In this document: piece by piece, positions 8,001 through 33,900 of the stretch
Layout of the letters: every line of letters begins with the position of its first letter
Numbering within the stretch: position 1 is the first letter of the stretch
Origin: Lingula anatina
Lineage: Eukaryota > Animalia > Brachiopoda
Length of the DNA: 64,000 nucleotides
Direction of reading: 5' to 3'
NCBI GenBank assembly: GCA_051362555.1
Contig: CM120649.1
Coordinates: 20,102,567-20,166,566 of the forward strand
Position numbers and translations under genes: made by a program
The notes under the pieces: model-generated
What the model saw: the letters and a program-made list of their open reading frames with translations, nothing else
Database searches by the model: none
Told to the model about the DNA's origin: nothing

Positions 8001-11000
8001 TGTTTGTGCTTGTGTGTGTTGTATATCCAGTCATGAGATTACTCTTCAATGAAATGTATTAAACAATGCAAATATTCCATGTACTCCTGTTTACAGTTAT
8101 GGCTGCTGTTGTAATGAATACTATGTTTGTTTTCTCCATAATGTCAGCCTGTAGACCACACTGCACTGAAAAATGCTGACCTCATCATCTTATCTCAGTT
8201 GACACAGACGCCACACGTCAATCCAGACTCCATGATAGGAGAGTTCTGCCTCAATGCTGGTATGAAGATTTGTTTGGTTATTTTCAGAGAAATCTTTCAT
8301 ACTTTTACAGTTTAAAATTTTCCAATGAGTGCTTAATTTTTTCTACATTTTGAATGTTCTTGGTGATTTTCTCAGTAATGTTACCTAAGATTGTTAACAG
8401 TGTTTTAGTAATTATGCTCTATATTGAAATATTTTAATGTGATCTTGCTATTTCAGCTCTGACTGTTAAGAAAGGAGGCAATGTTCTGGTTCCTGTGTAC
8501 CCAGCTGGTGTGACCTATGACCTCTTTGAATGCCTCTCTGTCCACATGGAGAGCTGTGGTCTGGCAGGTGTCCCCATGTATTTTATCTCCCCTGTAGCTG
8601 ACAGCAGTCTGGCATATTCTAATATCTTTGCTGAGTGGTAAGTTAACTGTGGACTGGCAGGTGTCCCCATGTATTTTATCTCCCCTGTAGCTGACAGCAG
8701 CCTGGCATATTCTAATATCTTTGCTGAGTGGTAAGTTAACTGTGGTCTGGCAGGTGTCCCCATGTATTTTATCTCCCCTGTAGCTGACAGCAGTCTGGCA
8801 TATTCTAATATCTTTGCTGAGTGATGAGAAAGTCATCTCATGCATTAAAGCAATTGCTGACAGTGATTCCATGTTGATAGTTCTTAAGAAAATTTTATTC
8901 ACTTCAAACCAAATCAAATACTTGAATATTTGACTTTTTGATACAGTAACTACAGTAATGATCAATGTAATGTGTAGATCTGATGAATGTGAAAGAATTA
9001 GCAGATATATACAAACCATAATTGAACACTTTACACTCCCAGGCTCTCAGACAGTAAACAATCCAAGGTGTACCTTCCAGAGCCACCCTTTCCACATGCA
9101 GAGGTAAGCAAATCAATACGAACTGTTGTACACATTATATGGGCCGTCCTTCTCAAATGTAACTTATAGCTGAGTTGATTTAATTAAATATCTAATATAC
9201 AGGAAATCTTCCAAATCCTGAGAGCTAAACTGTTTTTCTGATTGCATTGTTTACTAACAGTAACAATATATTCCTTTTGCTTCCACTTCCCTTTGCACCC
9301 TCTCTCTCTGCTAACATTGAAACTCTTACTGTATTACTGCATTAACCATGATTGGTTGAGAGGCTAAGTACAAAGTCTTTCTCTTTTTAATGTCTCACAA
9401 AATTTTAGACGTTTTCAAATATTGGCTTTTCTGGGCAAAGCTCAACTCTTTCTCTGCAAATAAAAATGTTTGAGGATTTGAAGATCTGTAGATTTTAGAA
9501 ATACCACATCTCCACTGATGTTAGAACTACGTGCATATTGGTCAATCTGAGCAGAGCTGTTGCACATCAACATTTGGTCATCTCTCTTCGTAATTAAATC
9601 ATTAAGGGAAAGTGTGGTTTGAAATAAGATAATGAAAATGTAGCTCAGTAATTTATTCTCTTTGCAGTTGATAAGTGCTGGCAGACTGCGGCATTACCCT
9701 AGTATACATGGTGAGTGGGGACACTTTATATATGTAGCAAACAATTTTTGTTTGTGTGTTTGCATTTCTTCAAAAGATTTTGGTGTCTCAAAACTGGTTT
9801 CAATAAATATTATTAAGCAAAACAGAAGTTTAGAAGTCATGTGTTTTACTTGACTTCAGTAAAGACTTCAAGACTCCCTGTGTAGTATTTACAAGACATC
9901 CACCTTTGGGATTTGATGTAATAATATTTTGTGTTTTGAGATTTGATGTAATAATATTTTGTGTTTTAGGTGACTTCAGTAAAGACTTCAAGACTCCCTG
10001 TGTAGTATTCACAGGACACCCATCTTTGAGATTTGGAGATGTTGTTCATTTTATTGAAATGTGGGGAAAGACCAGTGCAAATGCCATCATATTTACTGGT
10101 AGGTGAAAATCTCTTGTTTATGTGTACTATGTGAAAGTGGTGATGATGAGGAAAATAGTTACCTAATCATTATGTTTAAAATGTCTCCATGGATATATAA
10201 TGAGCATGTCAAACATACCGATGACTCCCCAGATGGTTTCTTAGATGTGGATTTTGTGTGGCAATTATTAAGCTAAAAGTTTTTATTAGGAAAATCTTTG
10301 TGTTTACGGGATAAAGGTTGTATAAAAGTAGTGCAGAGTTAAAGTCATGAAATTTGTTAAATTAAATATTTTTTTTTCTTTTTCAGAGCCAGATTTCTAC
10401 TACCTAGATGCTCTGGCCCCCTACCAACCCCTGGCTATGAAAGTAGGAACAGGCCAAAGATTGGGATCAGCAATTTTAAGAATGAATAGATCAATAAATA
10501 AATAATAAAATAAATAAATGATTATGTTAATAAAATGTAAGATAATAACGATAAGAATTCATTGATGTATGATTTATTCCAGGTTCTTTGCTGCCCTATA
10601 GACACAAGTCTCAACTTCTCCCAGACTAACAAGTTGATCAAGGATCTCAAGCCACAGCATTTTGTAATCTCAGAGACGTACACACGCCCCCCTCCTCTGT
10701 ATCCACATAGAACTGACCTTGTGGTGGACCCAGTAAGTATATATACACACTGTATCCACATAGAACTGACCTTGTGGTAGACCCAGTAAGTATATACACA
10801 CTGTATCCACATAGAACTGACCTTGTGGTGGACCCAGTAAGTATATACACACTGTATCCACATAGAACTGACCTTGTGGTAGACCCAGTAAGTATATACA
10901 CACTGTATCCACATAGAACTGACCTTGTGGTGGACCCAGTAAGTCTATACACACTGTATCCACAAAGAACTGACCTTGTGGTGGACCCAGTAAGTATATA

Positions 11001-19675: not shown

Positions 19676-20786
19676 TCTTTAAAACTGCCTTAGTGTAATG
19701 CATAATGTAAAATTAATGAGTAAAATCTAAATATGAATCGAAAGGTCAAGAAAACTCTGCAAACATATTTAAAACTTTTAAATTCTAAATTATTCCAAGA
19801 TCTACTGGATGCAAATGTTGCTAAAACAATAAGAATATTAAGATGAAAATTTTGTGACGGTAGGTTTAAACAATTTTCTTGAGTTCTTTTTAATAGTGAA
19901 GAAAAATTCGATCTAGTTGTCATAAATTCAGTAGATTTGATGTAAACGGTTCTAACATTGTAATAAGTATAAGGGCATTCTCTTCTAGCAAATCTTAAAA
20001 AACAATTAATTAATAATAAACATTTAAAAACTTTACTAAAAAACTGGATGCGACTGCATTTCTTTGAGAATTGTTTTGAATTTGACCTTGATGACCTCCA
20101 AATTTTTAATCTATATTAAAATGAGAGGGTCCCAAATATTTTGGGGTGTAATGTTTGAACATTTGTCTTTTTACTAAAATGCCTTGGCACAAGCAGCACG
20201 TCTATTTAGTTCATTCAGTAATAAAAACCTTCGAGTCTTTTCAAAAATATATGACAGCAAACTATCAAACTTTCAATTGCGCAACCTCCACTCTAGAAAT
20301 ACAGCTGATTCAACAATGGATTGCTGACCATGTGACCCTCAGTTTTTCACAATAATTGGTGATGACCCAGTTGATGGTGCGTCCTACTGCTGTCGGAGAG
20401 GGCACTACGGTGTACTATTATAGGAGTTACGGTGCTTGCTGTAAACATCTCTCCTTCAGAGCCGATAAAAATCCCTATGATATCCTAGCATTAGAAAAGT
20501 TTTTTTATTATAATTCTCACGAGTGAATTACGGTTATATGCCCATTTTTTCTTGGTTAAAAATACGTCCAGGCATTTGCCCTCTACCCCACCCCCCTCCC
20601 TCGGCACACCCTGTGTCAATCACGCAGTCACCCAGTGAGTGGGTGACCATCTGACAGTCAGGTGACACAGATATAAAGGCACGGTTCGTCAATGTTAGCG
20701 CATTAAAAACATCGGAACAGCATCGTGCGCGCATTGGTTCCTATTAATCCTGTACACGGTAAAGTTTGTGGAATTCCACACACACC

Positions 20787-21001
20787 ATGTTGCTGGTAGC
20801 CATATGTCTGGGGGTACTGGCTGTGGCCGCGGCAGATAAAAAACCCTGCTGTGCGCCTCCGCAGTGGGAAGGACTTCTGGCGGAGAAGATGGGGACAGAC
20901 CACCAGGGCAAGGCCTGGCTTTTACAGGTACCACACAATGTACAGGGGGCGGGGCATGGAGTTTATGGAGGGGTTTTTGTATGAGACGCCAGGTGAAGTC
21001 G

Positions 21002-21064
<63 letters not shown>

Positions 21065-22953
21065 TTATATTTTTTAAATCTCAAATATTTTAGACTTATT
21101 TTCAGTCCTGGTGATATTTCAGGAGGGTGCGTTGATGTCTGTGTCATGGCCGGACAAGAAGATAAACTTCATGGGTCAGGTAAACGCTACAGGGGGCACC
21201 AGTGTCAAGTTCAGAGTCATTCAAGATTACAAGGCGGTGAGTAGAAATACTTACACAGCAGTCCTTCCTTCACCGTCTATGCTTTTATTGACATATTCAA
21301 TCACTCGTCTTTACACTCACTTCTTTACTTAGAGATACATTCATTCTAGCCCCCCTCCCTCTCACCCACACACCAATACACGGCATATTTGTACCCGGTA
21401 TGTAACTACAAGGTACTTAGTCTGCAAGAAAAAAATTTTTTCTCGTAATTTCAGATGCATTAAAAACGATAGGGTGTTTTGTGTTAGTTCATCATTGTGG
21501 GTTACTTGATTGAATCTGTGATTTATGAACTTCATGATTTTTATTGTAGAAACAACAGTATGCCATAGTCCACAAAAACTGCACTAAAACTGCCCTTGCG
21601 GAGGAAATGATCAACGGAGTCCCACGTGAGTAACGCTGGAACGTCTGGAACACCTTGCAATTGGCTAATATAGGGGCAATTGTTTCTTCTTGTACTGGTT
21701 ACCCTGCTTAAACATGGCAACAGTAAGTTTTCTAACGAACAAAAGGGAGGGGCAAGTACAAATATCCACTGTTGCATTAACGACTCTTTCCACCATTGGG
21801 TTGTTTCCAGCCAATGCCACGTACGTTGGTACTTTCTACCTTGGCGCCGGCAAGGACAACGAGCTGATGTTTGACACGTGGCTGATCAAGTACAAAGGCA
21901 TGGACTTCCAGTCTGAACTGGCTACCACCGTGAAGGACTGCATCCCCATGAGCTGGTTTGCCTTCGGAACGGTCAACAAAGGTACGTAAACCTCGTGTTA
22001 CTGCATGGCCAGTTACCACATCAGAGTATATACAGTGGACAGTTAGAATTTTTTGGTATTTTTGTCATATGGAATAGTTTTATTTTATAATTGAGCATGA
22101 ATGATCATCAAACTTGATTACTGTGCTGGCTCCTGTTTAAATGGTCCAAGTGGGCCCTTTTGATTTGAAAAATCAAAGAAAAACAAAAACAGAGGATGTG
22201 ATGTAAAATGGGATTATCACATGTATGCACTTTTCTCTATTGCAATGATTATTAATTGTCCTGTTTCTAAATTCATAACCAGTGTTTCTAATTATCAGAC
22301 AACATATCATGATATCAGGCCCTGCTGACCTAACCTTTACGTTTTTATCACTTCAGGTAAACTCATCCAGTCTGCTGGCATTGTGAACGTGACACTTGGA
22401 ATTAAGGACAACAGCGTTTTTACTGTGCCAGACATCTGCAAGAAGGCGTCAAATGAGGTACAGTAAGTCGAGGGACCGGGACATTCCTGTTATACTGTGT
22501 GTTAACTCATGACAGCTTCATCACTGTTAAATATATTAAACCGCATATTATTTCAGTCCATACCGCTGCGATGTCTTGATTATATACCAGTACAGGGACA
22601 TACTGCTACTTGTAGAACGAAATACATTTCACTTTTTGATAACTGTTTAAAAAAAAAACAGATTTTAATTGGTCGATCAACGTACGTTTAACATACAATA
22701 AATTACCGGTACATACAGGCTACTGTACATGAACCTGTATGTATACATGTAATAAAAAAATTCCCTGTGTGCAAAGCAAGCGCTGTCGTGTTTGCCTGAT
22801 TGTCCAAAGGCAAGTGAACATATTTGTAAGAGGCACATGTACAGTTGTACGTGTTAAATGTCTGTAACTTCATTTGCTTTAACTTCATTTCTATTTCAGT
22901 ACCCACACCCAGTCCTGGCGGGTATGGCTGACCAGTTCCGTCTACGGCTGTAA
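20787..22953 (+). CDS. Ependymin-related secreted protein, copy 2 (6 exons)
   Basis: Exons 20787-20927, 21123-21236, 21550-21625, 21811-21981, 22357-22457, 22900-22953. Exon lengths are identical to copy 1 and the motifs are the same. Confidence 0.9.
21002..21067. repeat. (ATTT)n microsatellite in intron 1 of ependymin copy 2
   Basis: Direct inspection. Confidence 0.95.
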
Positions 22954-24424
22954 GTCAACATAATGTGAGGTACGCGTATAAACCGTGATTAACGACGTCA
23001 CATGTACACCAAAAAACAATGATGTCAAACGTACAGCAAAGTGACATCACATATGAACGAATAACAATGATGTTGTCAATGGACACGTTGCAGAGAATTT
23101 TTGTTGGACAAAAGATTCTGAAAGAACCTGTTTGTTTCTGTATTATTTCAACACATTGGTTTTATTCAAAGAAAGTGGTGTACATGTGGCTGTAAAGGTT
23201 ACATAACACTTTTTCAATAAAGATTTCTTCCTGACTTGAACCATTTTTGTTGTTTACGGTAGCAGTATTTAGGGCTCACCTAACATTATACTACTGCTTT
23301 GTAGGTGACAGACGTAAAACTGGATTTAACGTCAAATCTTGAAAGGAAGAATAGAATCAAAACAAAAGTTAATTTTTAAAATTATTATTCATTGTAGGGA
23401 TAAAATCTGAGGGGTATAAATAAAAAACACAAATGATAAATTAAAGTTTTTCACTAAAAGTACAGGCATAGTTTAAAGGCTAGACAGTACAGGTACTAGT
23501 ACATGGAATATGAGATACTAGTGGCATACCTAATTACTGGATCTATATATACCTGTTCATGTATTACAGAATGATGTAAAGTTTTTAAAAAAATTAGAAT
23601 CCTTCTATCTGCATTGAATAGATCTCCACGTAGTCTATAGAGACAAAAAAGACACTATCTTTTCTATTAGCATTGTGAATGTCACATAAAACCACTAAAA
23701 ATAAGTTTGATTTCATGTAAATAGGTAGGTATCTTCTTCCTGCATGCCACTGTTATTTTAACAAGTGAAAACGATATTAATACAAGTGACAGTGTTAACA
23801 TGCAAGTGTAAGATATATCTACAGGATACTGTCAGTACGAACTCTTCTCTCCATATATTATACTTGTAGTCATACTGGTCTCAACAGACAATGACAAAGT
23901 CAGCTGAGCTCTCAAAAAACAGAACAGACTAGTTTTTACCTGTGAATAAAACAAACCATTTAATATTGAAACTGCACAAGATATAATGCAGCAGTTGAGA
24001 ACTCAGAAGGGATTTTGAATAAATGACAGTATAAAATCCTGGATCCCTAAATGTACACATTAGTAAGAAGAGACAATCCAGCTGTCAGCCCTACTGTTAC
24101 TCTAATTTAGTAAGAACAGGACAGAACCAGTTTCTGTATAAAATACATGTACTAGTTATGTATTCAAGTCTACTGAAACATTGGGTACATTAACCATATA
24201 TTTCCCATTACTGTGAAGTAACTAATCTCAAAATTTAACCAAACAGAAGTTATTAACTTTGTGATTCTGCCACATAGGCAAAGAACACAATATCCATAAT
24301 CTAAGTACGTTTATATGTATATAATGCTCCATAGCGCGGCCCTCTGGGGTATTTGACAATTTTTGGGACTCAAGACACATGAAAAACATTGCAGCATTCA
24401 CATGAAAAAGGGGGGCGTCTTAAG

Positions 24425-24568: not shown

Positions 24569-24852
24569 TGAAAAACAATCTTCATCAATGGAGAGTTCTA
24601 CATTGTGAGCTGATTAAAAAGACTGTGATGTTACTGCTTCACAGAAGTATCTCCTCTACTGTCATCTGTAAACTTCAAGTGGGAGAGACACCTCACTTCT
24701 TCTGCAACAAAACAGTTCATGACTTTACTCACAGCTTCAATAATTAACAACTTAAGATGTGTGCCAATTAAAAACTATTGGCAACAGTACATAAAACACT
24801 AAGACTCTAAATTCATTGTTTTTGACCAGTTTATTAAAGATAGCTGGACTTT

Positions 24853-27800
24853 TTAGAACTGCAGAACGGGATTCTGAAAAATAATGTTCTATATTATTTT
24901 AATGTACTATAGTATGCTGTGAAGGGATTGGGAGTAAGGTTTGAATTAAATAATATCCCCTTCCATTAATATTTGCAGACAGGTTTACCTTTTTCTTTTT
25001 TCCTTTTCCCTTTTTCTTCTTCTTTTTAAGTCCTGTTGCCAGTTTACAGATTGCACTGAAGGTTTCGGAGGCCATTCTGGTTGTGGTCTTTAACTTAACA
25101 CCACCAAGTTTTCCTGGAGCTAGAACACCAAACAACAGCCAGGGAATTAGCACTGAGTGAATAGGCACGCACCACAATTCATTAAACAGAACACTCTTGG
25201 CTTAAGCCTATTAAACCTACTTCAACTTTTTGTTATAGCACAGTTAGAAATGGATAACTAGCAATTTGCCTTTACAACTGGCATTGTTTCAACCTAGTTT
25301 CAGTCATTTAATCTTTCTTAAACCACCTTTATGTAGCTTCATTGACATTAAATTTAGCTTTGAAGGGAAAGAAAAAAATCTTCAGATCCAGAAAATAGGC
25401 AATAATGACAGAACAAAAATCAAACACAATTCAATAAAAAATGGCAATGTAAACAGCAGAGCACCTGCAGACTGAAATGATGTAAAAACTGTTGTTCATA
25501 AAGCTTAACTTATAGGGGGTTGCCAGCAAGATGATGATGACCCTTTGGGTTTTAATTTGTGGAACTGTGTGAAATCAGTGCCCATTAATTAGTATTCTGT
25601 TATCTCACCTTCTTTCCTGTCTTTTAATGCTTCCAAGATTTCCTTTCCTCCCAGTTCTCCTATGTGATTGTCTTCAAGGTCAATTTCTTCAAGACACAGA
25701 GAGTTTGCAATAAGCCTGGAAGAATGTGTACAGTGCTGTACAGTGCTGTAGTAGTGCTCAATTCATTATCACACCCAACACAATGTTAGCAGCACAACTA
25801 CCACAATGAGAAACGACCAAATTCATCTCTAAATTATAAGAGTAATATGTTCATTCTTTCTAAATGCTTGAATTGCTTACTTCCTGAACAACCTCATACA
25901 TATGAGAGGTGCGAACTGGGAACCGGCGCCATAGGCATCTATTCCATTGTCCGCCAGGTGGAGCTTGTGTACCCAGGGACCCACGGCGGGAGGCGGAGGG
26001 GGCTCCTTCTTCTTCTTCTTTTTACCTTAACACAACAAGCATTAAACTGTCATCAACTTGGCATAAAAGATTGCATTAACTAGATTTCTGGACTTGTTTT
26101 TAATTTTCCTCCCTACAAACTCAAGTTCATTTAAAGCAACACATAAATATCAACATTACCAACCTAGAAACTGATTTACAGAAGTAACACCTCATAAGTT
26201 AAAAGATTTAACATTTTTCTATAAAAGCAGTTCAGTAACCTTTCTTTTTCTTCTTTCCTTTTCCTTTCCCTCCTGCAGAGCCAGGTTTCTCAGCGTCTTT
26301 TTTCTCCCCTCCTTCTCCACTGACTGCAGAGCCTATACGGTCAATGTGTCTGCCTTCCTTTTCTGGAAAAAGTAAGGTTCAAGTAATAATAATTCAAAGT
26401 TTTAACTGGTTATTGTTTTTTTTCTTCTTAAGTTACCTCAAGAGGGTGAATGCCACTTCGTTATGAACATTAATGCTAATTCTATTTATATGCAATTATT
26501 TTAATCCCATACATATAATCCACAATCTTCTCTTTTACCTCTTTCCCCATCCAGACTTATTCAACTTTCTATTCATTTTCACTTACATGTACCATGGAAC
26601 ACTAAATCTTTAAACACCTGTTCTCTCTCTCTCTCTCTCTCTCTCAGATTCAGTAAAAATGCTCCACGTACCCATGAGTGCAGCTTCTGCCTCTGCCTCC
26701 AGTCTAAGTCTCTCATTCTCTGCTCTCTCAAAAGCCTCCAACTCTGCATTGTCTGCACACAGTTTGATCAGCTCCATGGCTCCTTCACACTGGAGATCAT
26801 TGCCGTCCAGGTACAGCTCTCTAGAAGTCAGGCACAAAGTCTAACATTAAAGAACAAACAACTTCCCAACCAGGACTTCACACTATAATTCACTTGCACA
26901 TGTACATTGATTTAGCTCTCAAAAAGAGAGAGAGAGAGAGAGAGAATTTTGCCAAAGAGTACAGTGTCTTACATACCTGACAGCTGTGGTAGAGAGTATA
27001 AAGCCCAGTGTCTTACATACCTGACAGCTGTGGTAGAGAGTATAAAGCCCAGTGTCTTACATACCTGACAGCTGTGGTAGAGAGTATAAAGCCCAGTGTC
27101 TTACATACCTGACAGCTGTGGTAGAGAGTATAAAGCCCAGTGTCTTACATACCTGACAGCTGTGGTAGAGAGTATAAAGCCCAGTGTCTTACATACCTGA
27201 CAGCTGTGGTAGAGAGTATAAAGCCCAGTGTCTTACATACCTGACAGCTGTGGCAGAGAGTATAAAGCCCAGTGTCTTACATACCTGACAGCTGTGGTAG
27301 AGAGTATGAAGCCCAGTGTCTTACATACCTGACAGCTGTGGTAGAGAGTATGAAGCCCAGTGTCTTACATACCTAACAGCTGTTGTAGAGAGTATAAAGC
27401 CCAGTGTCTTCCCACTCTCTGGTCCCAGCTCACAGTAACACAGACTAATGGAGAGCATTGTGACGTTGTTCTCCAGACCCAGACACAAGTTTCTACAGCC
27501 CTCGTCACCAAACCTGACCAAGAAAACATACAGGACTGACAGACACAATACCAGGCAAATGTCTCCTTATAGACACTATTCACTTAGAGAATGATGCCCT
27601 TTTAGAAAGTTTGGTAATTTCATTTCTTAAATAAAAATTTCTTGGCAAAAATAATACTTATAATTATTATAATAATAATGCTCAATTGCAACAAAAATTA
27701 TGAACGGTTAAATAAATATGTGATATATGCTGTTGATAAAGGGATCAACAAATATTTGCATAATATTCCTATATATATATATTGTGACTTACTCATTGTA

Positions 27801-30471
27801 GTCCAGTACCAGTGTGGTGAGTGAAGGACAGAAGGTGAATGACCTGAAACAGGACAGTGACATGGTTACCATTGACAACAGAAGGTGAATGACCTGAAAC
27901 AAGACAGTGACACGGTCACCAATGACAACAGAACGTGAATGACCTGAAACAGGACAGTGACATGGTTACCATTGATAACAGAAGGTGAATGACCTGAAAC
28001 AGGACAGTGGCACGGTTACCATTGACAACAGAAGGGGAATAACCTTCATCTCTAATACATACTACTTACCTAGATAATCTCTCCACAGCATGAGTCTCTA
28101 CCAGGCAGTCCATCATCTCTAGTGTCCTCAGTGGATAAAAACCTTTCTCTAATACATACTACTTACCTAGATAATCTCTCCACAGCATGAGTCTCTACCA
28201 GGCAGTCCATCATCTCTAGTGTCCTCAGGGGATAAAAACCTTTCTCTAATACATACTACTTACCTAGATAATCTCTCCACAGCATGAGTCTCTACCAGGC
28301 AGTCCATCATCTCTAGTGTCCTCAGTGGATAAAAACCTTTCTCTAATACATACTACTTACCTAGATATTCTCTCCACAGCATGAGTATCTACCAGGCAGT
28401 CCATCATCTCTAGTGTCCTCAGTGGATAAAAACCTTTCTCTAATACATACTACTTACCTAGATAATCTCTCCACAGCATGAGTCTCTACCAGGCAGTCCA
28501 TCATCTCTAGTGTCCTCAGTGGATAAAATCCTTTCTCCAGTAGCAATGCCTGAAACAGAGGAAGTATCACTAAGCACTTTTGACAGAATGATGTCTCAAT
28601 CCACTGTTGTACATCAAATATGCAAACAGAAATAAATTAAATTTAATACTGAATTGAGCTTAAATCTTTTAAGCATGTAGATGGTGATTTCCCTCTCTCT
28701 CTTTCTTGGAATCTTAGGTGCCAAAAATTAAATAATAAAATTTATAAAGTTTAGAAGAGTTATACATAAATAAGTGATATGCTGTTGATAAATGGATCAA
28801 TTAGCAATATCCTCATATGTAGTACATATGTACAGACATACCAGAGTAGCAATATCCTCATATGTAGTACATATGTACAGACATACCAGAGTAGCAATAT
28901 CCTCATATGTAGTACATATGTACAGACATACCAGAGTAGCAATATCCTCATATGTAGTACATATGTACAGACATACCAGAGTAGCAATATCCTCATATGT
29001 AGTACATATGTACAGACATACCAGAGTAGCAATATCCTCATATGTAGTACATATGTACAGACATACCAGAGTAGCAATATCCTCATATGTAGTACATATG
29101 TACAGACATACCAGAGTAGCAATATCCTCATATGTAGTACATATGTACAGACATACCAGAGTAGCAATATCCTCATATGTAGTACATATGTAAAGACATA
29201 CCAGAGTAGCAATATCCTCATATGTAGTACATATGTACAGACATACCAGAGTAGCAATATCCTCATATGTAGTACATATGTCCCATACGTGTAAATCTTT
29301 GATGTGGACGTATCTTTCTTTACGGATTGCACTTATCATTGGTTCGACTAGGACTTTAGGATCATCTTTGCTCAAGGTGGGAATGGCCTCAAGAATAACC
29401 TGTAATATTAATAATTACAATACATGTGTGGCAAATAGCAGTGACATAGAGCATCTTTTATACTGTAAATCCTTACCACAATATCAATTAACCAAAATCA
29501 CTTTGCATTTTATAAATTGTGCATGCCATTTTGCCATCTTAATTAATCTTGTGAAAGATTGCAGGAAAATTGACCATCTCTCCTTTAATTATCTTCACTG
29601 TCTCTTCAATACATTATTATATTTAACACATTGACCTTTACTAAGACTGTGTTATTATCTTCACAGTTCCTTCAGTATATTATTGCATCTAATAGACTGA
29701 CCTTCACTAAGACTGTGTTATTCTCAATGCAGTTCTTCATCAGTTTCTTCAAGTTCAGATCCATGACAGAATTGGTTTCCTTGCAGTTGTTTTCATAGGT
29801 TTTATACAAACTTTTAACCATCTTATCTGGGATCTAAAACATACATGTATACGTACATTAAATCACTCTGCAAGTGGTATTCATACTAGTACTTTCTTTA
29901 TATTCCTATTCAGAAATCAGAGCTCATTATATGTATCTATAACTTGCATGCAAACATCAAAACAGATCAAAGATGAAAACATAAAAGAATGTCATGAAAG
30001 GTTGACAATATACACCTGCCCATCAAAATATTTATTGAAAATGCTAGTACTAGCTCATGTGCAACATTTATAAGACAGTTTTACAGCAATATTTTGATCA
30101 AGGTTGGACTGCAATACCCATGCAATGAAGTACTTGGATTATACATACTGGTAACTTTATTCCTCTTTTTTAAACATATTTTTTCAATAATGTTTGAAAA
30201 ACGTTATTGCCAATGATACCACATTGTTCTGAAACTGTTTCTAAACACAATATATGCTAATACCCATTCTAACTTATGATGATACTTATGAAGACTCATA
30301 TGTACAGTAACTTACCATGTACCAGTCGCTGTTTTTGTAAAAGTCAGTTCTATGAGAAATATTCAAATATCACTGCACTAGTGCAGCTACTATCAGATAT
30401 CCTACCTCTCCACTCTTCAAGGACTTCTTCTTCTTCCCCTTCTTCTTCCCCTTGCCTTTCTTCTTTGGCAT
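24853..30471 (-). CDS. Lys-rich, RNI-like leucine-rich-repeat protein (uncharacterised)
   Basis: Exons 30406-30471, 29702-29833, 29247-29399, 28458-28549, 27793-27843, 27373-27513, 26672-26820 and further exons at ~26240-26362, ~25881-26025, ~25609-25716 and ~24989-25119 join in frame. Product: MPKKKGKGKK...LRTLEMMDC...LTTLVLDYNEFGDEGCRNL...ELYLDGNDLQCEG...KLHLADNGI...EEIDLEDNHIGELGG...KKKKGKGKKKK. The last exon and stop position (24853) are uncertain. Confidence 0.8.
26962..27410 (-). repeat. 44-bp x10 array spanning an LRR-gene donor
   Basis: Unit AAGACACTGGGCTTTATACTCTCTACCACAGCTGTCAG|GTATGT; donors from 27372 down to 26976. Confidence 0.95.
27828..28045 (-). repeat. 50-bp x4 array spanning an LRR-gene acceptor
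   Basis: Unit tgtcaatggtaaccatgtcactgtcctgtttcAG|GTCATTCACCTTCTGT; acceptors at 27994, 27944, 27894 and 27844. Confidence 0.92.
28049..28537 (-). repeat. 97-bp x5 array spanning an LRR-gene donor
   Basis: About 79 exonic nt plus gtaagtagtatgtatta; donors at 28457, 28360, 28263, 28166 and 28069. Confidence 0.95.
28802..29281 (-). repeat. 45-bp x~10.7 in-frame array spanning an LRR-gene donor
   Basis: Unit ACATATGTACTACATATGAGGATATTGCTACTCTG|GTATGTCTGT; donors from 29246 down to 28841. Reads VCLYICTTYEDIATL in frame (ORF 28797..29375). Confidence 0.95.
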
Positions 30472-31039
30472 CTTGGCTTATTACTTTAACTTAGCTGCAA
30501 AACTATAAGGTGCTTTAAATGCTTTAACTGCATATTGTTTCAGTCAAGCTAGTATGTTGGTTATCACCTTTAAATTGATAGCAACTATTGACCTTTGTCT
30601 AAAGCACATACTTCAGCAAAATCTACAAATGTACACATCCAGTCTTACAGGCATTTTGAATGAAGTCAGCAGCTTAACTTAAGTTGTCTTAATATCTTAG
30701 CATAATTTTTCGTGATTACTTATGGTCGTATCTTTACTTTAGCTATCATACACCATACAATACCGTCCTGGAGTGCCCATGTACCAATACAGATGTGCCT
30801 GTACAATATACTAGTACATGCATGTGTACATGTACATGTACTGTAGAGTACATGTATTGTATGAGAGCGCCGCTAATCTCACAGAAATTCTTCCAACAGT
30901 TTGCTAAAAATTGCTTAAGCAACAGAATACATATTTGCCTGATGCAAATAAACCATTGTCAGCAAAATACAAAGTTTTCTTACCTTGATTTTCCCTGAAT
31001 GTCAGTCTAACACATGCTTTTTCCGAGCACCTGCTTCAG

Positions 31040-31310
31040 CCACCCACAGGTTGCCGGACCCAGGTTGCCAAGGCCGCCATTTTTGTATACAATACGCACC
31101 AAAAAGTTGCCAATGACTAGTTTTACATGTTTATGCAATATGGCAATGTGGTTTCAATGTTTCACAAAATAAAACATAAATAAGCTAAGAATGGGGAAAT
31201 TATAAGGTTTTTTATTCAAGATGGTTTATTTTTTGTATAATTTTGTGAAATTCTATGTTTTATGTCAACTCATCGTTGCGCGCGTTACTACTTATACACT
31301 AAGATGGCGA
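31040..31310. promoter_or_regulatory. Bidirectional promoter between the LRR gene and SELENOT
   Basis: YY1-type GCCGCCATTTT at ~31073 and AAGATGGCG at 31301. Three GTTGCC RFX-like half-sites at 31050, 31064 and 31106. A minus-strand 5'UTR donor lies near 30983. Confidence 0.5.
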
Positions 31311-33900
31311 CCAGGTGGCAGACCAGCGCTTGGCTGGTTTTCCTTTGTTTTCTAGCATGGCGGGATTATACCACAGAAATATCTGCTCACGAACAGTCAC
31401 ACAAATCTGCAAAAGATATCCGAGCGCCTAAGCTCTCAAAATTCACGGGTCCAGCGCTAAAATTTTTATACTGGTTCGTATCACTTTCTTTAGTTAGGTT
31501 TGTCCAAACGTATTAATAGTGTACATCATTGAAAATCGTTGATGATGTAATGTTATCATGTACCATATGGCTTATTTGCGAGATCTTAAGATACGATGGT
31601 AGACCTGCTTTTAAACTGTGGTTATTTTGTTTTAAATGTGAATATTTACATGGGTTTAAAATTTAAAGAATCAAAAGTAAAGAGTAGATCATAGATGATC
31701 TTAACGGGCCTCATTTACGATTACCGGAAATATCTTTTCATTTTATGATTCATCCTTTTGTATATACATTTATGTAATATATTCTGTGGGGAAAGGATCA
31801 TAAATGTCTTCAAGTATTAGATTACCGATGTCCAGGGTGGAAACTGTAATAAACCTAGATTTTAAGGCATGTTTATGTATTCACTGACTTGGACGGCAGA
31901 AATTTCCCCAGTTCTCTTTATGTTTCTAGTAAAAGCATTAAAAAAAAAAAAATTAAATTTGCTGCCAGGTCAAGTAATATGATTGGCAGAAACATTGATC
32001 AAAGTCACTACATAACTAAATTTAACAAAGCGTTGAGTATCGATCTATGATTGAACTTGTTCAGAGCACACTTGCCAGTGTCAGGGGAACTGTTCAGAAT
32101 GATTTAGTGAGCATTAACCCCATGTAGACTTTCACTGAGTGCATCTGTGTTAGCTATTATGACCGAACTTAATCTGAATGGCCTCAGAGTCAGTTTATCC
32201 AGCATTGTTCCACCACAAAGAGTAATTACAGTTCAGAGATATAATTACACTATAGGGATGCCAAGCATGCTTACCTTTGGGCTAATGTATGAAAGCGACA
32301 AAGCAAGTCACCTACACCTGAGGCAGGGAAAGGGGGTTGCTTGGAGGGGATCAGCTTAGTGTGCCCCAGTTATTTATATGTGATTATTTTCTGTTCCAGA
32401 TATTCCTGAGGGTATCAAAAGCTGTATGAGCAGTTTTCCTATGCCATACAGCAAAAGTACCCAGCCCTCAGTGTGCCTCAGTCATGTATATGTGATTGTT
32501 TTCTGTTCCAGCTATTCCTGAGGGTATCAAAAGCTGTATGAGCAGTTTTCCTATGCCATACAGCAAAAGTACCCAGCCCTCAGTGTGCAGGGAGGCAACT
32601 ACCCACCACCCCCACTGAAGGCCACCATAGCTCAAATATTAGGACTTGTCAAAATTGCTTTAATCATCATGATAGCTAGTGGATTTAATCCTTTCCCTGC
32701 TCTTGGAGTAGACACGCCATCAGCCTATACCTGGGCCTCAGAGAATAAGGTAGGAATACTTTTGCAGGCTTAGAAACTGGATTTTGGATTTAACAGTTTT
32801 TGGATTTTTTTCTGTACTCATGATATTAAAAAAACACTTTTCTATGAATTTACTAGTAGACAATATTTATTTATTTTTTTATAATCTGAAGAAAGTGTGA
32901 AAAAGCTGCAGTGCTTTAGTAGTGAACTGTGAAGGGTCTTGATGTATTTTATAAAGTGAAAATTCAAAATATTCTTAACAGTGAGCTGTTTATGTCACCA
33001 TGATAGCTGATTTGATAATTTCAGAGTTGTAGCTTGCACGTGTGTCTTATCTTCCAGGTCTATGCATGTTTGATGCTGTTTTTTATTTGCAATGCAGTTG
33101 AGGGACAGCTGATCTCTACAGGAGCATTTGAAGTCACATTTAACGGTACAGTTTTGTGTGAGTGTGTGTGTGTGTGTTTATTTTAAATGGAGTCGAGGGA
33201 AAGTTGATTTCTGCTGGGGCTTTGAAGTCACCTTTAACTGTTTTAAAAAATCAACATAAACCTAAATCAAACAACAGTGAAGAGCCTCAAGGACAAGAAA
33301 AATGTTTCATGAAGCACATTCTTGTAGAGCTGGGAAGGGGGGTTAAAGTCTGCAAATTGCCCTTCCAGTGTAATAAATGTTATGTAATGTAATAGTGGGT
33401 ATTTTACTTAGGCTCTGTTCTCACAACTTTTAGATCGATCTATCACCGCGGGGAGTCTCACTAGATTACTTTCAGATAATCCCCCTTAAGTGTCCGTCCC
33501 CGCCTACTACAAGCTTTAAGGGGTAATTAACTTTCGTGTCCGCCCGGCTGACAGCTATTTAGCGTGAACCCCCAGGGAGTTAGGTCGATCCAATGTAGGT
33601 CGATCTAATCTATGAGAATGGGGTGTTAGTCTGTTATCTGTCTACCGACTTGTGTCCATGTTATAATTAAAAACAGAATGGTGCAGTGATAAAAAACTCT
33701 AATGTTAATCCTGTTGTTTGAAATGTATGTTTATTTTAAAGATATTATGTCAATAAATTGGATGTTTTAAAGAGTAATATAAAATTTCAGATGTCCCAAT
33801 TTGGTCTAAATTAGAGACAGGTCGAATCCCATCTCCACAGGAGTTTTTCCAGATTATTGATAATAACATGCGTATGACTCAGGAAGGGGTGATGTCATAG
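31304..33900 (+). CDS. SELENOT: Selenoprotein T (thioredoxin-like CxxU; in-frame UGA = Sec at 32519-32521)
   Basis: Exons 31304-31473, 32512-32749, 33058-33145, 33791-33900. Product: ...GPALKFLYCYSUGYQKLYEQF...QKYPSLSVQGGNYPPPP...WASENKVYACLMLFFICNAVEGQLISTGAFEVTFNDVPIWSKLETGRIPSPQE...*. A SECIS lies downstream. Confidence 0.95.
32358..32588 (+). repeat. 112-bp duplication spanning the SELENOT exon-2 acceptor, including the UGA
   Basis: ttttctgttccAG at 32399 and 32511, both followed by (A/C)TATTCCTGAGGGTATCAAAAG... Confidence 0.92.
33411..33625. mobile_element. PIF/Harbinger-like MITE, copy A
   Basis: TTA on both flanks, inverted ends with tagatcga motifs, and a body closely similar to 54581-54786. 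Confidence 0.75.

What the first reader, a model, noticed from the sequence alone, without database searches (positions are those of the whole stretch)
28802..29399. In-frame, stop-free array of 10 identical donors: candidate splice-tunable protein repeat
Seen: a 45-bp unit at a phase-0 intron. Each successive CTG|GTATGT donor adds VCLYICTTYEDIATL with no stop, so 10 NMD-insensitive isoforms (0-9 extra 15-aa units) are possible at the start of the LRR region. The copies are almost invariant; the one change seen is at 29192 and keeps the frame open. This is the only such array in the window without a stop or frameshift. Inference: either a ladder of protein isoforms generated by donor choice, or a very young array not yet disabled.
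Basis: partly seen in the sequence, partly recalled or inferred. Interest (0 to 1): 0.75.

Follow-up and report, generated by a model that had tools for sequence, protein, structure and literature searches.

The report
Repeated splice donor in LRR gene
The end of one exon and its splice signal are repeated ten times in an invertebrate gene, but all junction-spanning RNA reads found use the first signal, so the extra copies are likely ordinary intron repeat DNA of a kind already known from human and lancelet genes.

Summary
The array is real: 10.7 copies of a 45-bp unit (28802-29281, minus strand) give ten identical donors in one open frame at a phase-0 intron of a conserved 432-aa leucine-rich-repeat gene. 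The isoform ladder is not supported. In 8 of 9 listed RNA runs of the same species label, all 22 listed junction reads join donor 1 to exon 4, and depth inside the array (29170-29237) is zero in 8 of 8 runs. This bounds downstream-donor use at about 13-24%, if those animals carry the array (not known). The open frame is expected by chance: 35 of 45 nt are exon copied in its own frame, the window holds 10 donor arrays, and a null model expects about two open ones (P of at least one about 0.9). The junction lies mid-helix; 114 of 115 homologues spanning it have no insertion. It is a new member of the exon-intron-boundary minisatellites (amphioxus 'mirages', human F7 intron 7). The scan found such arrays before on other DNA. 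More notable is their density: 9 of 11 minisatellites in two fully annotated genes span splice sites (3 expected).

The parts
28802..29281 (-). 45-bp minisatellite, 10.7 copies; unit = last 35 nt of exon 3 plus first 10 nt of the intron
29247..29399 (-). coding exon 3 (153 nt, 51 aa) of the LRR gene; its last 35 nt are the first copy of the unit
   Evidence: reads; homologues
29241..29249 (-). authentic donor 1 (intron starts at 29246); used by all listed junction reads
28836..29204 (-). nine identical downstream donor copies (29201, 29156 ... 28841), in frame, no use seen
28458..28549 (-). coding exon 4; its start is the loose-end sequence of the junction reads
24693..31073 (-). host gene: 5' non-coding exon (about 30984-31073) plus 12 coding exons, 432-aa ribonuclease-inhibitor-like LRR protein; all coding introns GT-AG
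   Evidence: fold of homologue P0031
29588..29739 (-). older 66-bp donor duplication at exon 2 (in frame, stop in unit); reads use the first donor
28049..28537 (-). 97-bp donor array at exon 4 (frameshift and stop)
27828..28045 (-). 50-bp acceptor array before exon 5
26962..27410 (-). 44-bp donor array at exon 6 (frameshift)

Best explanation
This is a minisatellite whose unit straddles an exon-intron boundary, and the RNA reads found splice only at its first donor, so the nine extra donors are likely removed as ordinary intron and the normal protein is likely made. Shown: unit anatomy (35 nt exon, 10 nt intron), donor-1 use in the reads, no insertion in homologues. Inferred: a short piece of the exon end was first duplicated into the intron, then amplified and homogenised by slippage or unequal crossing-over; the spliceosome takes the most upstream of identical donors (as shown for human F7, not tested in this animal); the open frame is a by-product of copying coding sequence with a period that happens to be a multiple of three.
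For:: 132 reads laid from 8 runs; loose ends at 29246 equal to the exon-4 start in 22 reads (X1 3, X2 6, X7 3, X3 3, X8 3, X9 4; none listed for X4, X5, which fall under the 3-read listing limit); depth 0 in 29170-29237 in 8 of 8 runs; no read ran over the stretch end or fitted two places; 10 donor arrays in the window, 3 with a first period divisible by three, 1 open; null P(in frame and open) 0.19-0.22 per array, expected 1.9-2.2, P(at least one) 0.88-0.92; with this unit geometry 12 of 15 other phase-0 donors would also be open; the INTS9-like 51-bp array has nine open in-frame units behind a frameshifted first unit, so open units arise where no usable protein results; 114 of 115 homologues spanning the junction have no insertion; the junction falls inside helix 117-128 (pLDDT 97-98) of homologue P0031. 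Literature: F7 IVS7 (PMC1557585); mirages leave splicing intact (PMC3087553; PMC3902484).
Against: Depth is low and only 6-30% of each run was read: 0 of 22 allows up to 13% downstream use (24% if mates halve the count). The RNA animals differ from the window by SNPs and were not shown to carry the array. Tissues are unknown. In human 6-16 and CBS the two nearest extra donors are also used (PMC1557585 introduction). One homologue (P0096, bowfin isoform X1) has an unrelated 24-aa insertion at exactly this junction. An earlier scan note (e1-9353532, unchecked) reports a case that uses the last donor. The origin steps are inferred from one haplotype.
Confidence: 0.85

Rival explanations
1. Leaky use: donors 2-3 are used at a few percent, giving in-frame +15 or +30 aa isoforms that escape nonsense-mediated decay but are functionless or mildly harmful noise.
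For: Donors are identical and in frame; human 6-16 and CBS use the two nearest copies; the read bound is only 13-24%.
Against: 0 of 22 junction reads and zero depth in the array in 8 of 8 runs; F7, lamin B2 and PDGF use only the first donor.
Confidence: 0.1
2. A selected, splice-tunable ladder of 0-9 extra 15-aa units, perhaps confined to a tissue or stage that was not sampled.
For: Open frame over all ten donors, no indel, the one change is silent; only such array among 10.
Against: No reads; open frame expected by chance; a silent change has probability 33 of 135 and a non-stop change 128 of 135 under no selection; the insert would split a conserved LRR helix, and 15 aa is half the 29-aa LRR period; frameshifting arrays are equally homogeneous.
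Confidence: 0.03
3. The copy number (or the array) is an assembly artefact.
For: Copies are near-identical; no independent DNA holding the array was seen (one search listed RNA runs only; one search found no metagenome match).
Against: One copy carries a private change; neighbouring arrays are older and diverged (82-90%); the copies of the 97-bp array match an exon-4 allele seen in reads of other animals and not the window's own exon, which an assembler would not invent.
Confidence: 0.02

Closest known systems
Amphioxus 'mirages' (Adh3, globins BflGb6/BflGb9, troponin C, PGBD5); PMC3087553 passages, PMC3902484 passage
   Same: Minisatellite-like tandem copies of an exon-intron boundary, donor or acceptor side, unit 10-160 bp, many per genome, homogeneous inside the cluster, normal splicing kept.
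   Different: Host is not a lancelet by homology (best named hit Lineus longissimus, 57% over 333 aa; lineage inferred, likely lophotrochozoan); the unit here is in frame and stop-free; length polymorphism and somatic instability were not tested.
Human F7 intron-7 37-bp VNTR; PMC1557585 abstract, introduction, section 6, discussion
   Same: First unit spans the donor; identical downstream donors; only the most upstream one is used, including where some downstream donors would give no premature stop.
   Different: F7 unit is 4 nt exon + 33 nt intron; here 35 nt exon + 10 nt intron, so read-through would repeat protein sequence. Activation of the next donor after loss of the first was shown for F7, not here.
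Human 6-16, CBS IVS13, lamin B2, PDGF intron minisatellites (as summarised in the PMC1557585 introduction; original papers not seen)
   Same: Reiterated donor in an intronic minisatellite.
   Different: 6-16 and CBS also use the two nearest extra donors; no such use seen here.

Membership tests
Exon-intron-boundary minisatellite (mirage / F7 type) | Head-to-tail minisatellite unit (10-160 bp) | tested here: met
   45 bp x 10.7, 99% matches
Exon-intron-boundary minisatellite (mirage / F7 type) | First unit spans a genuine exon-intron boundary, reiterating the splice signal in the intron | tested here: met
   35 nt exon + 10 nt intron; boundary confirmed by RNA and homologues
Exon-intron-boundary minisatellite (mirage / F7 type) | Normal splicing at the authentic site | tested here: met
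   22 of 22 listed junction reads; low depth; array not shown in those animals
Exon-intron-boundary minisatellite (mirage / F7 type) | Copy-number polymorphism or somatic instability | not tested
   No DNA run was listed (RNA search); no genome held
Exon-intron-boundary minisatellite (mirage / F7 type) | Downstream donors are functional when the first is lost (F7) | not testable with these tools
   Needs a minigene
Alternative-donor protein-repeat ladder | Downstream donors in frame and stop-free | tested here: met
Alternative-donor protein-repeat ladder | Transcripts that use downstream donors | tested here: not met
   0 reads in 29170-29237 in 8 of 8 runs; bound 13-24%
Alternative-donor protein-repeat ladder | Conservation of the insert or coding constraint on the unit | tested here: not met
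   No homologue carries a similar insert; open frame at chance level; one substitution is uninformative; close relatives not available

The most novel reading that the evidence does not exclude
This animal makes splice-site minisatellites at very high density by a mutational process aimed at exon-intron boundaries (9 of 11 arrays in two genes, five in four consecutive introns), and in carriers the rare in-frame arrays such as this one release tissue-restricted protein isoforms whose repeat number is set by donor choice and by allele length.
Probability: 0.06. Interest if true: 0.65.

Novelty: new member of a known kind. Interest (0 to 1): 0.17.

Why it matters
As a single locus it matters little: it repeats in an invertebrate what F7 and the lancelet mirages show. 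Its use is as a clean natural test: because every donor here is in frame, decay of faulty messages cannot hide downstream use, so the reads speak for first-donor choice itself outside mammals. The density of such arrays in this genome also offers material for the open question of how mirages arise (stated as unclear in PMC3087553).

Tried and rejected
An upstream cryptic phase-0 GT at 29288 as the true donor: rejected, reads run through it to 29247, it is changed in some animals, and homologues conserve the segment. RNA structure as the reason for first-donor choice: the unit is unusually self-complementary (z -3.4, 1 of 60 unit shuffles as stable; strongest of 8 arrays tested, so weak after multiple testing), but all ten donors are predicted equally paired (0.12-0.19 unpaired), so it does not single out donor 1 (the z -5.0 uses shuffles that destroy the repeat and is not a fair control). 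Homologue search with exon 3 alone found nothing. Pfam on 7 pieces: only a weak LRR_6 match below cut-off on one exon, a Noc2 match at E 0.05, and spurious matches on the repeat peptide. No indexed RNA holder was listed; only raw-read runs by species label. Metagenome scan for the unit: 0 matches. No earlier notes on this genome. No whole genome held, so no genome-wide count. The search of protein representatives could not be run. The original mirage paper (PMC117041) and Zhuo et al. 2007 (PMC1783408) are not held and are known only from citations. Paper searches; none listed a report of such arrays in nemerteans or molluscs, but subscription papers are missing. First passes at gene models had boundary slips; the null uses the corrected models.

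Full report
Observation. The window is animal DNA; no whole genome is held. TRF finds a 45-bp array at 28802-29281 with 10.7 copies, 99% matches and no indels. On the minus strand it gives ten identical donors at 29246, 29201 ... 28841. Nine full units translate as VCLYICTTYEDIATL; the tenth is cut after 40 nt and ends in a stop beyond the last donor. The unit is 10 nt of intron plus 35 nt of exon.

Host gene. Twelve coding exons from 30471 to 24693, all with GT-AG introns, give an open 432-aa protein; reads add a 5' non-coding exon near 30984-31073. One exon found an abalone homologue, which found 130 relatives, 120 of them listed, mostly uncharacterised animal proteins with LRR_6. Against those 120 the best hit is Lineus longissimus P0031, 57% over 333 aa (model then correct to residue 351), so the host is likely a lophotrochozoan (inference). 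A model of P0031 (mean pLDDT 87.7; alignment of 87 of the 120) is a ribonuclease-inhibitor-like LRR solenoid whose top matches are axonemal proteins at 18% identity; a ciliary role is a lead only. The exon 3/4 junction maps to P0031 residues 123/124, inside helix 117-128. Of 120 homologues, 3 have no residues there and 2 are partial; 114 of the other 115 have no insertion at the junction, and one bowfin isoform (P0096) has an unrelated 24-aa insertion.

RNA test. 132 reads were laid. Loose ends at 29246 match the start of exon 4 in 22 reads from 6 of 8 runs; X4 and X5 have none listed (3-read limit). Mean depth in 29170-29237 is 0 in all 8 runs while the adjoining bin has 1.4-5.6; no read ran over the end of the stretch or fitted two places. 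Any message using donor 2 or later would cover that bin. The 95% upper bound on downstream use is 13% (22 independent reads) or 24% (11).

Is the open frame surprising? No. The window holds 10 donor-spanning arrays (periods 34-97), in the LRR gene, an INTS9-like gene, a U2SURP-like gene, a CUB-domain exon and one unnamed exon (gene labels recalled from the translations, not from a database call). Three have a first period divisible by three; only this one is open. When the period is a multiple of three the exon-derived part is stop-free automatically, so only 10 nt are at risk. Simulating duplications at the 33 other annotated donors gives P(in frame and open) 0.19-0.22, 1.9-2.2 expected among ten, P(at least one) 0.88-0.92; with this array's geometry 12 of 15 phase-0 donors would be open. 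The INTS9-like 51-bp array has nine open in-frame units (153 aa) behind a 53-nt first unit that shifts the frame, and the frameshifting 44-, 97- and 34-bp arrays are as homogeneous (97-98%, no indels). Homogeneity and an open frame therefore do not show coding selection.

Mechanism. Shown: anatomy and first-donor use in the reads. Inferred: a duplication of the exon end into the intron seeded a tandem repeat that grew by slippage or unequal exchange. A hint comes from the neighbouring 97-bp array: its copies carry an exon-4 variant that matches reads of runs X7-X9 better than the window's own exon, and in that variant the exon shares 9 nt with the intron sequence at the array's far end, the microhomology that slippage would need. 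For the 45-bp unit, self-complementarity is higher than in shuffled units (1 of 60; strongest of 8 arrays tested) and may favour expansion, but it does not distinguish the donors. First-donor choice is taken from human F7, where identical downstream donors are competent but unused until the upstream one is lost (PMC1557585).

Known kinds. Lancelet 'mirages' are tandem copies of exon-intron boundaries that do not disturb splicing and whose origin is called unclear (PMC3087553 passages; PMC3902484 passage). Human F7, lamin B2 and PDGF use only the first donor; 6-16 and CBS also use the next two. The array meets the tested features of this kind; polymorphism was not tested. Earlier notes of this scan describe like arrays in other animals, most with first-donor use and one with last-donor use (unchecked AI notes, read after my own RNA test). 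Supplements were not read; none bears on a claim here.

What remains of interest. In the two fully annotated genes 9 of 11 minisatellites of period 30 or more span a splice site, against 3.0 expected from random non-exonic placement (P about 1e-4; post hoc, one window, null ignores sequence context). Five lie in four consecutive introns of the LRR gene. That points to a boundary-biased process worth a genome-wide count. Verdict: real, new member of a known kind, ladder not supported; interest 0.17.

Noticed in passing
window:5032-13763 and 24693-31073: 9 of 11 minisatellites (period 30 or more) in the two annotated genes span a splice site; 3.0 expected by random placement. Five sit in four consecutive introns of the LRR gene.
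   Followed up: partly
window:10697-11257 (+): 51-bp donor array in the INTS9-like gene: nine open in-frame units behind a first unit that is 2 nt longer and shifts the frame.
   Followed up: partly
window:28049-28549 (-): The copies of the 97-bp array differ from the window's exon 4 at three silent positions and resemble the exon-4 allele in reads of X7-X9; that allele shares 9 nt with the intron at the array's far end, a possible microhomology seed.
   Followed up: partly
window:11479-11701, 27828-28045, 32358-32588, about 9850-9969: Acceptor-side duplications (112, 50, 112 bp with intact AG; a 120-bp-offset copy without AG). RNA use not tested.
   Followed up: partly
window:13728-13861 (+): 45-bp triplication spanning the stop codon of the INTS9-like gene.
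   Followed up: no
window:27694-27748 and 28746-28800: A 55-bp segment (75% alike) lies in two introns of the LRR gene; one copy begins right where the 45-bp array is cut off, so it may be a small dispersed element that truncated the array.
   Followed up: no
window:15900-18400 (+) and 20600-22960 (-): Two similar multi-exon genes in opposite orientation, apparently a local inverted gene duplication (seen by eye).
   Followed up: no
window:42700-44400: Degraded transposase-like sequence between inverted-repeat-like ends, resembling a Tc1/mariner element (by eye, recalled resemblance).
   Followed up: no
window:32400-33870 (+): Selenoprotein-T-like gene (label recalled from translation) head to head with the LRR gene.
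   Followed up: no
P0096 (bowfin isoform X1): 24-aa insertion exactly at the homologous exon 3/4 junction, suggesting a conserved intron position with an alternative extension in that annotation.
   Followed up: no
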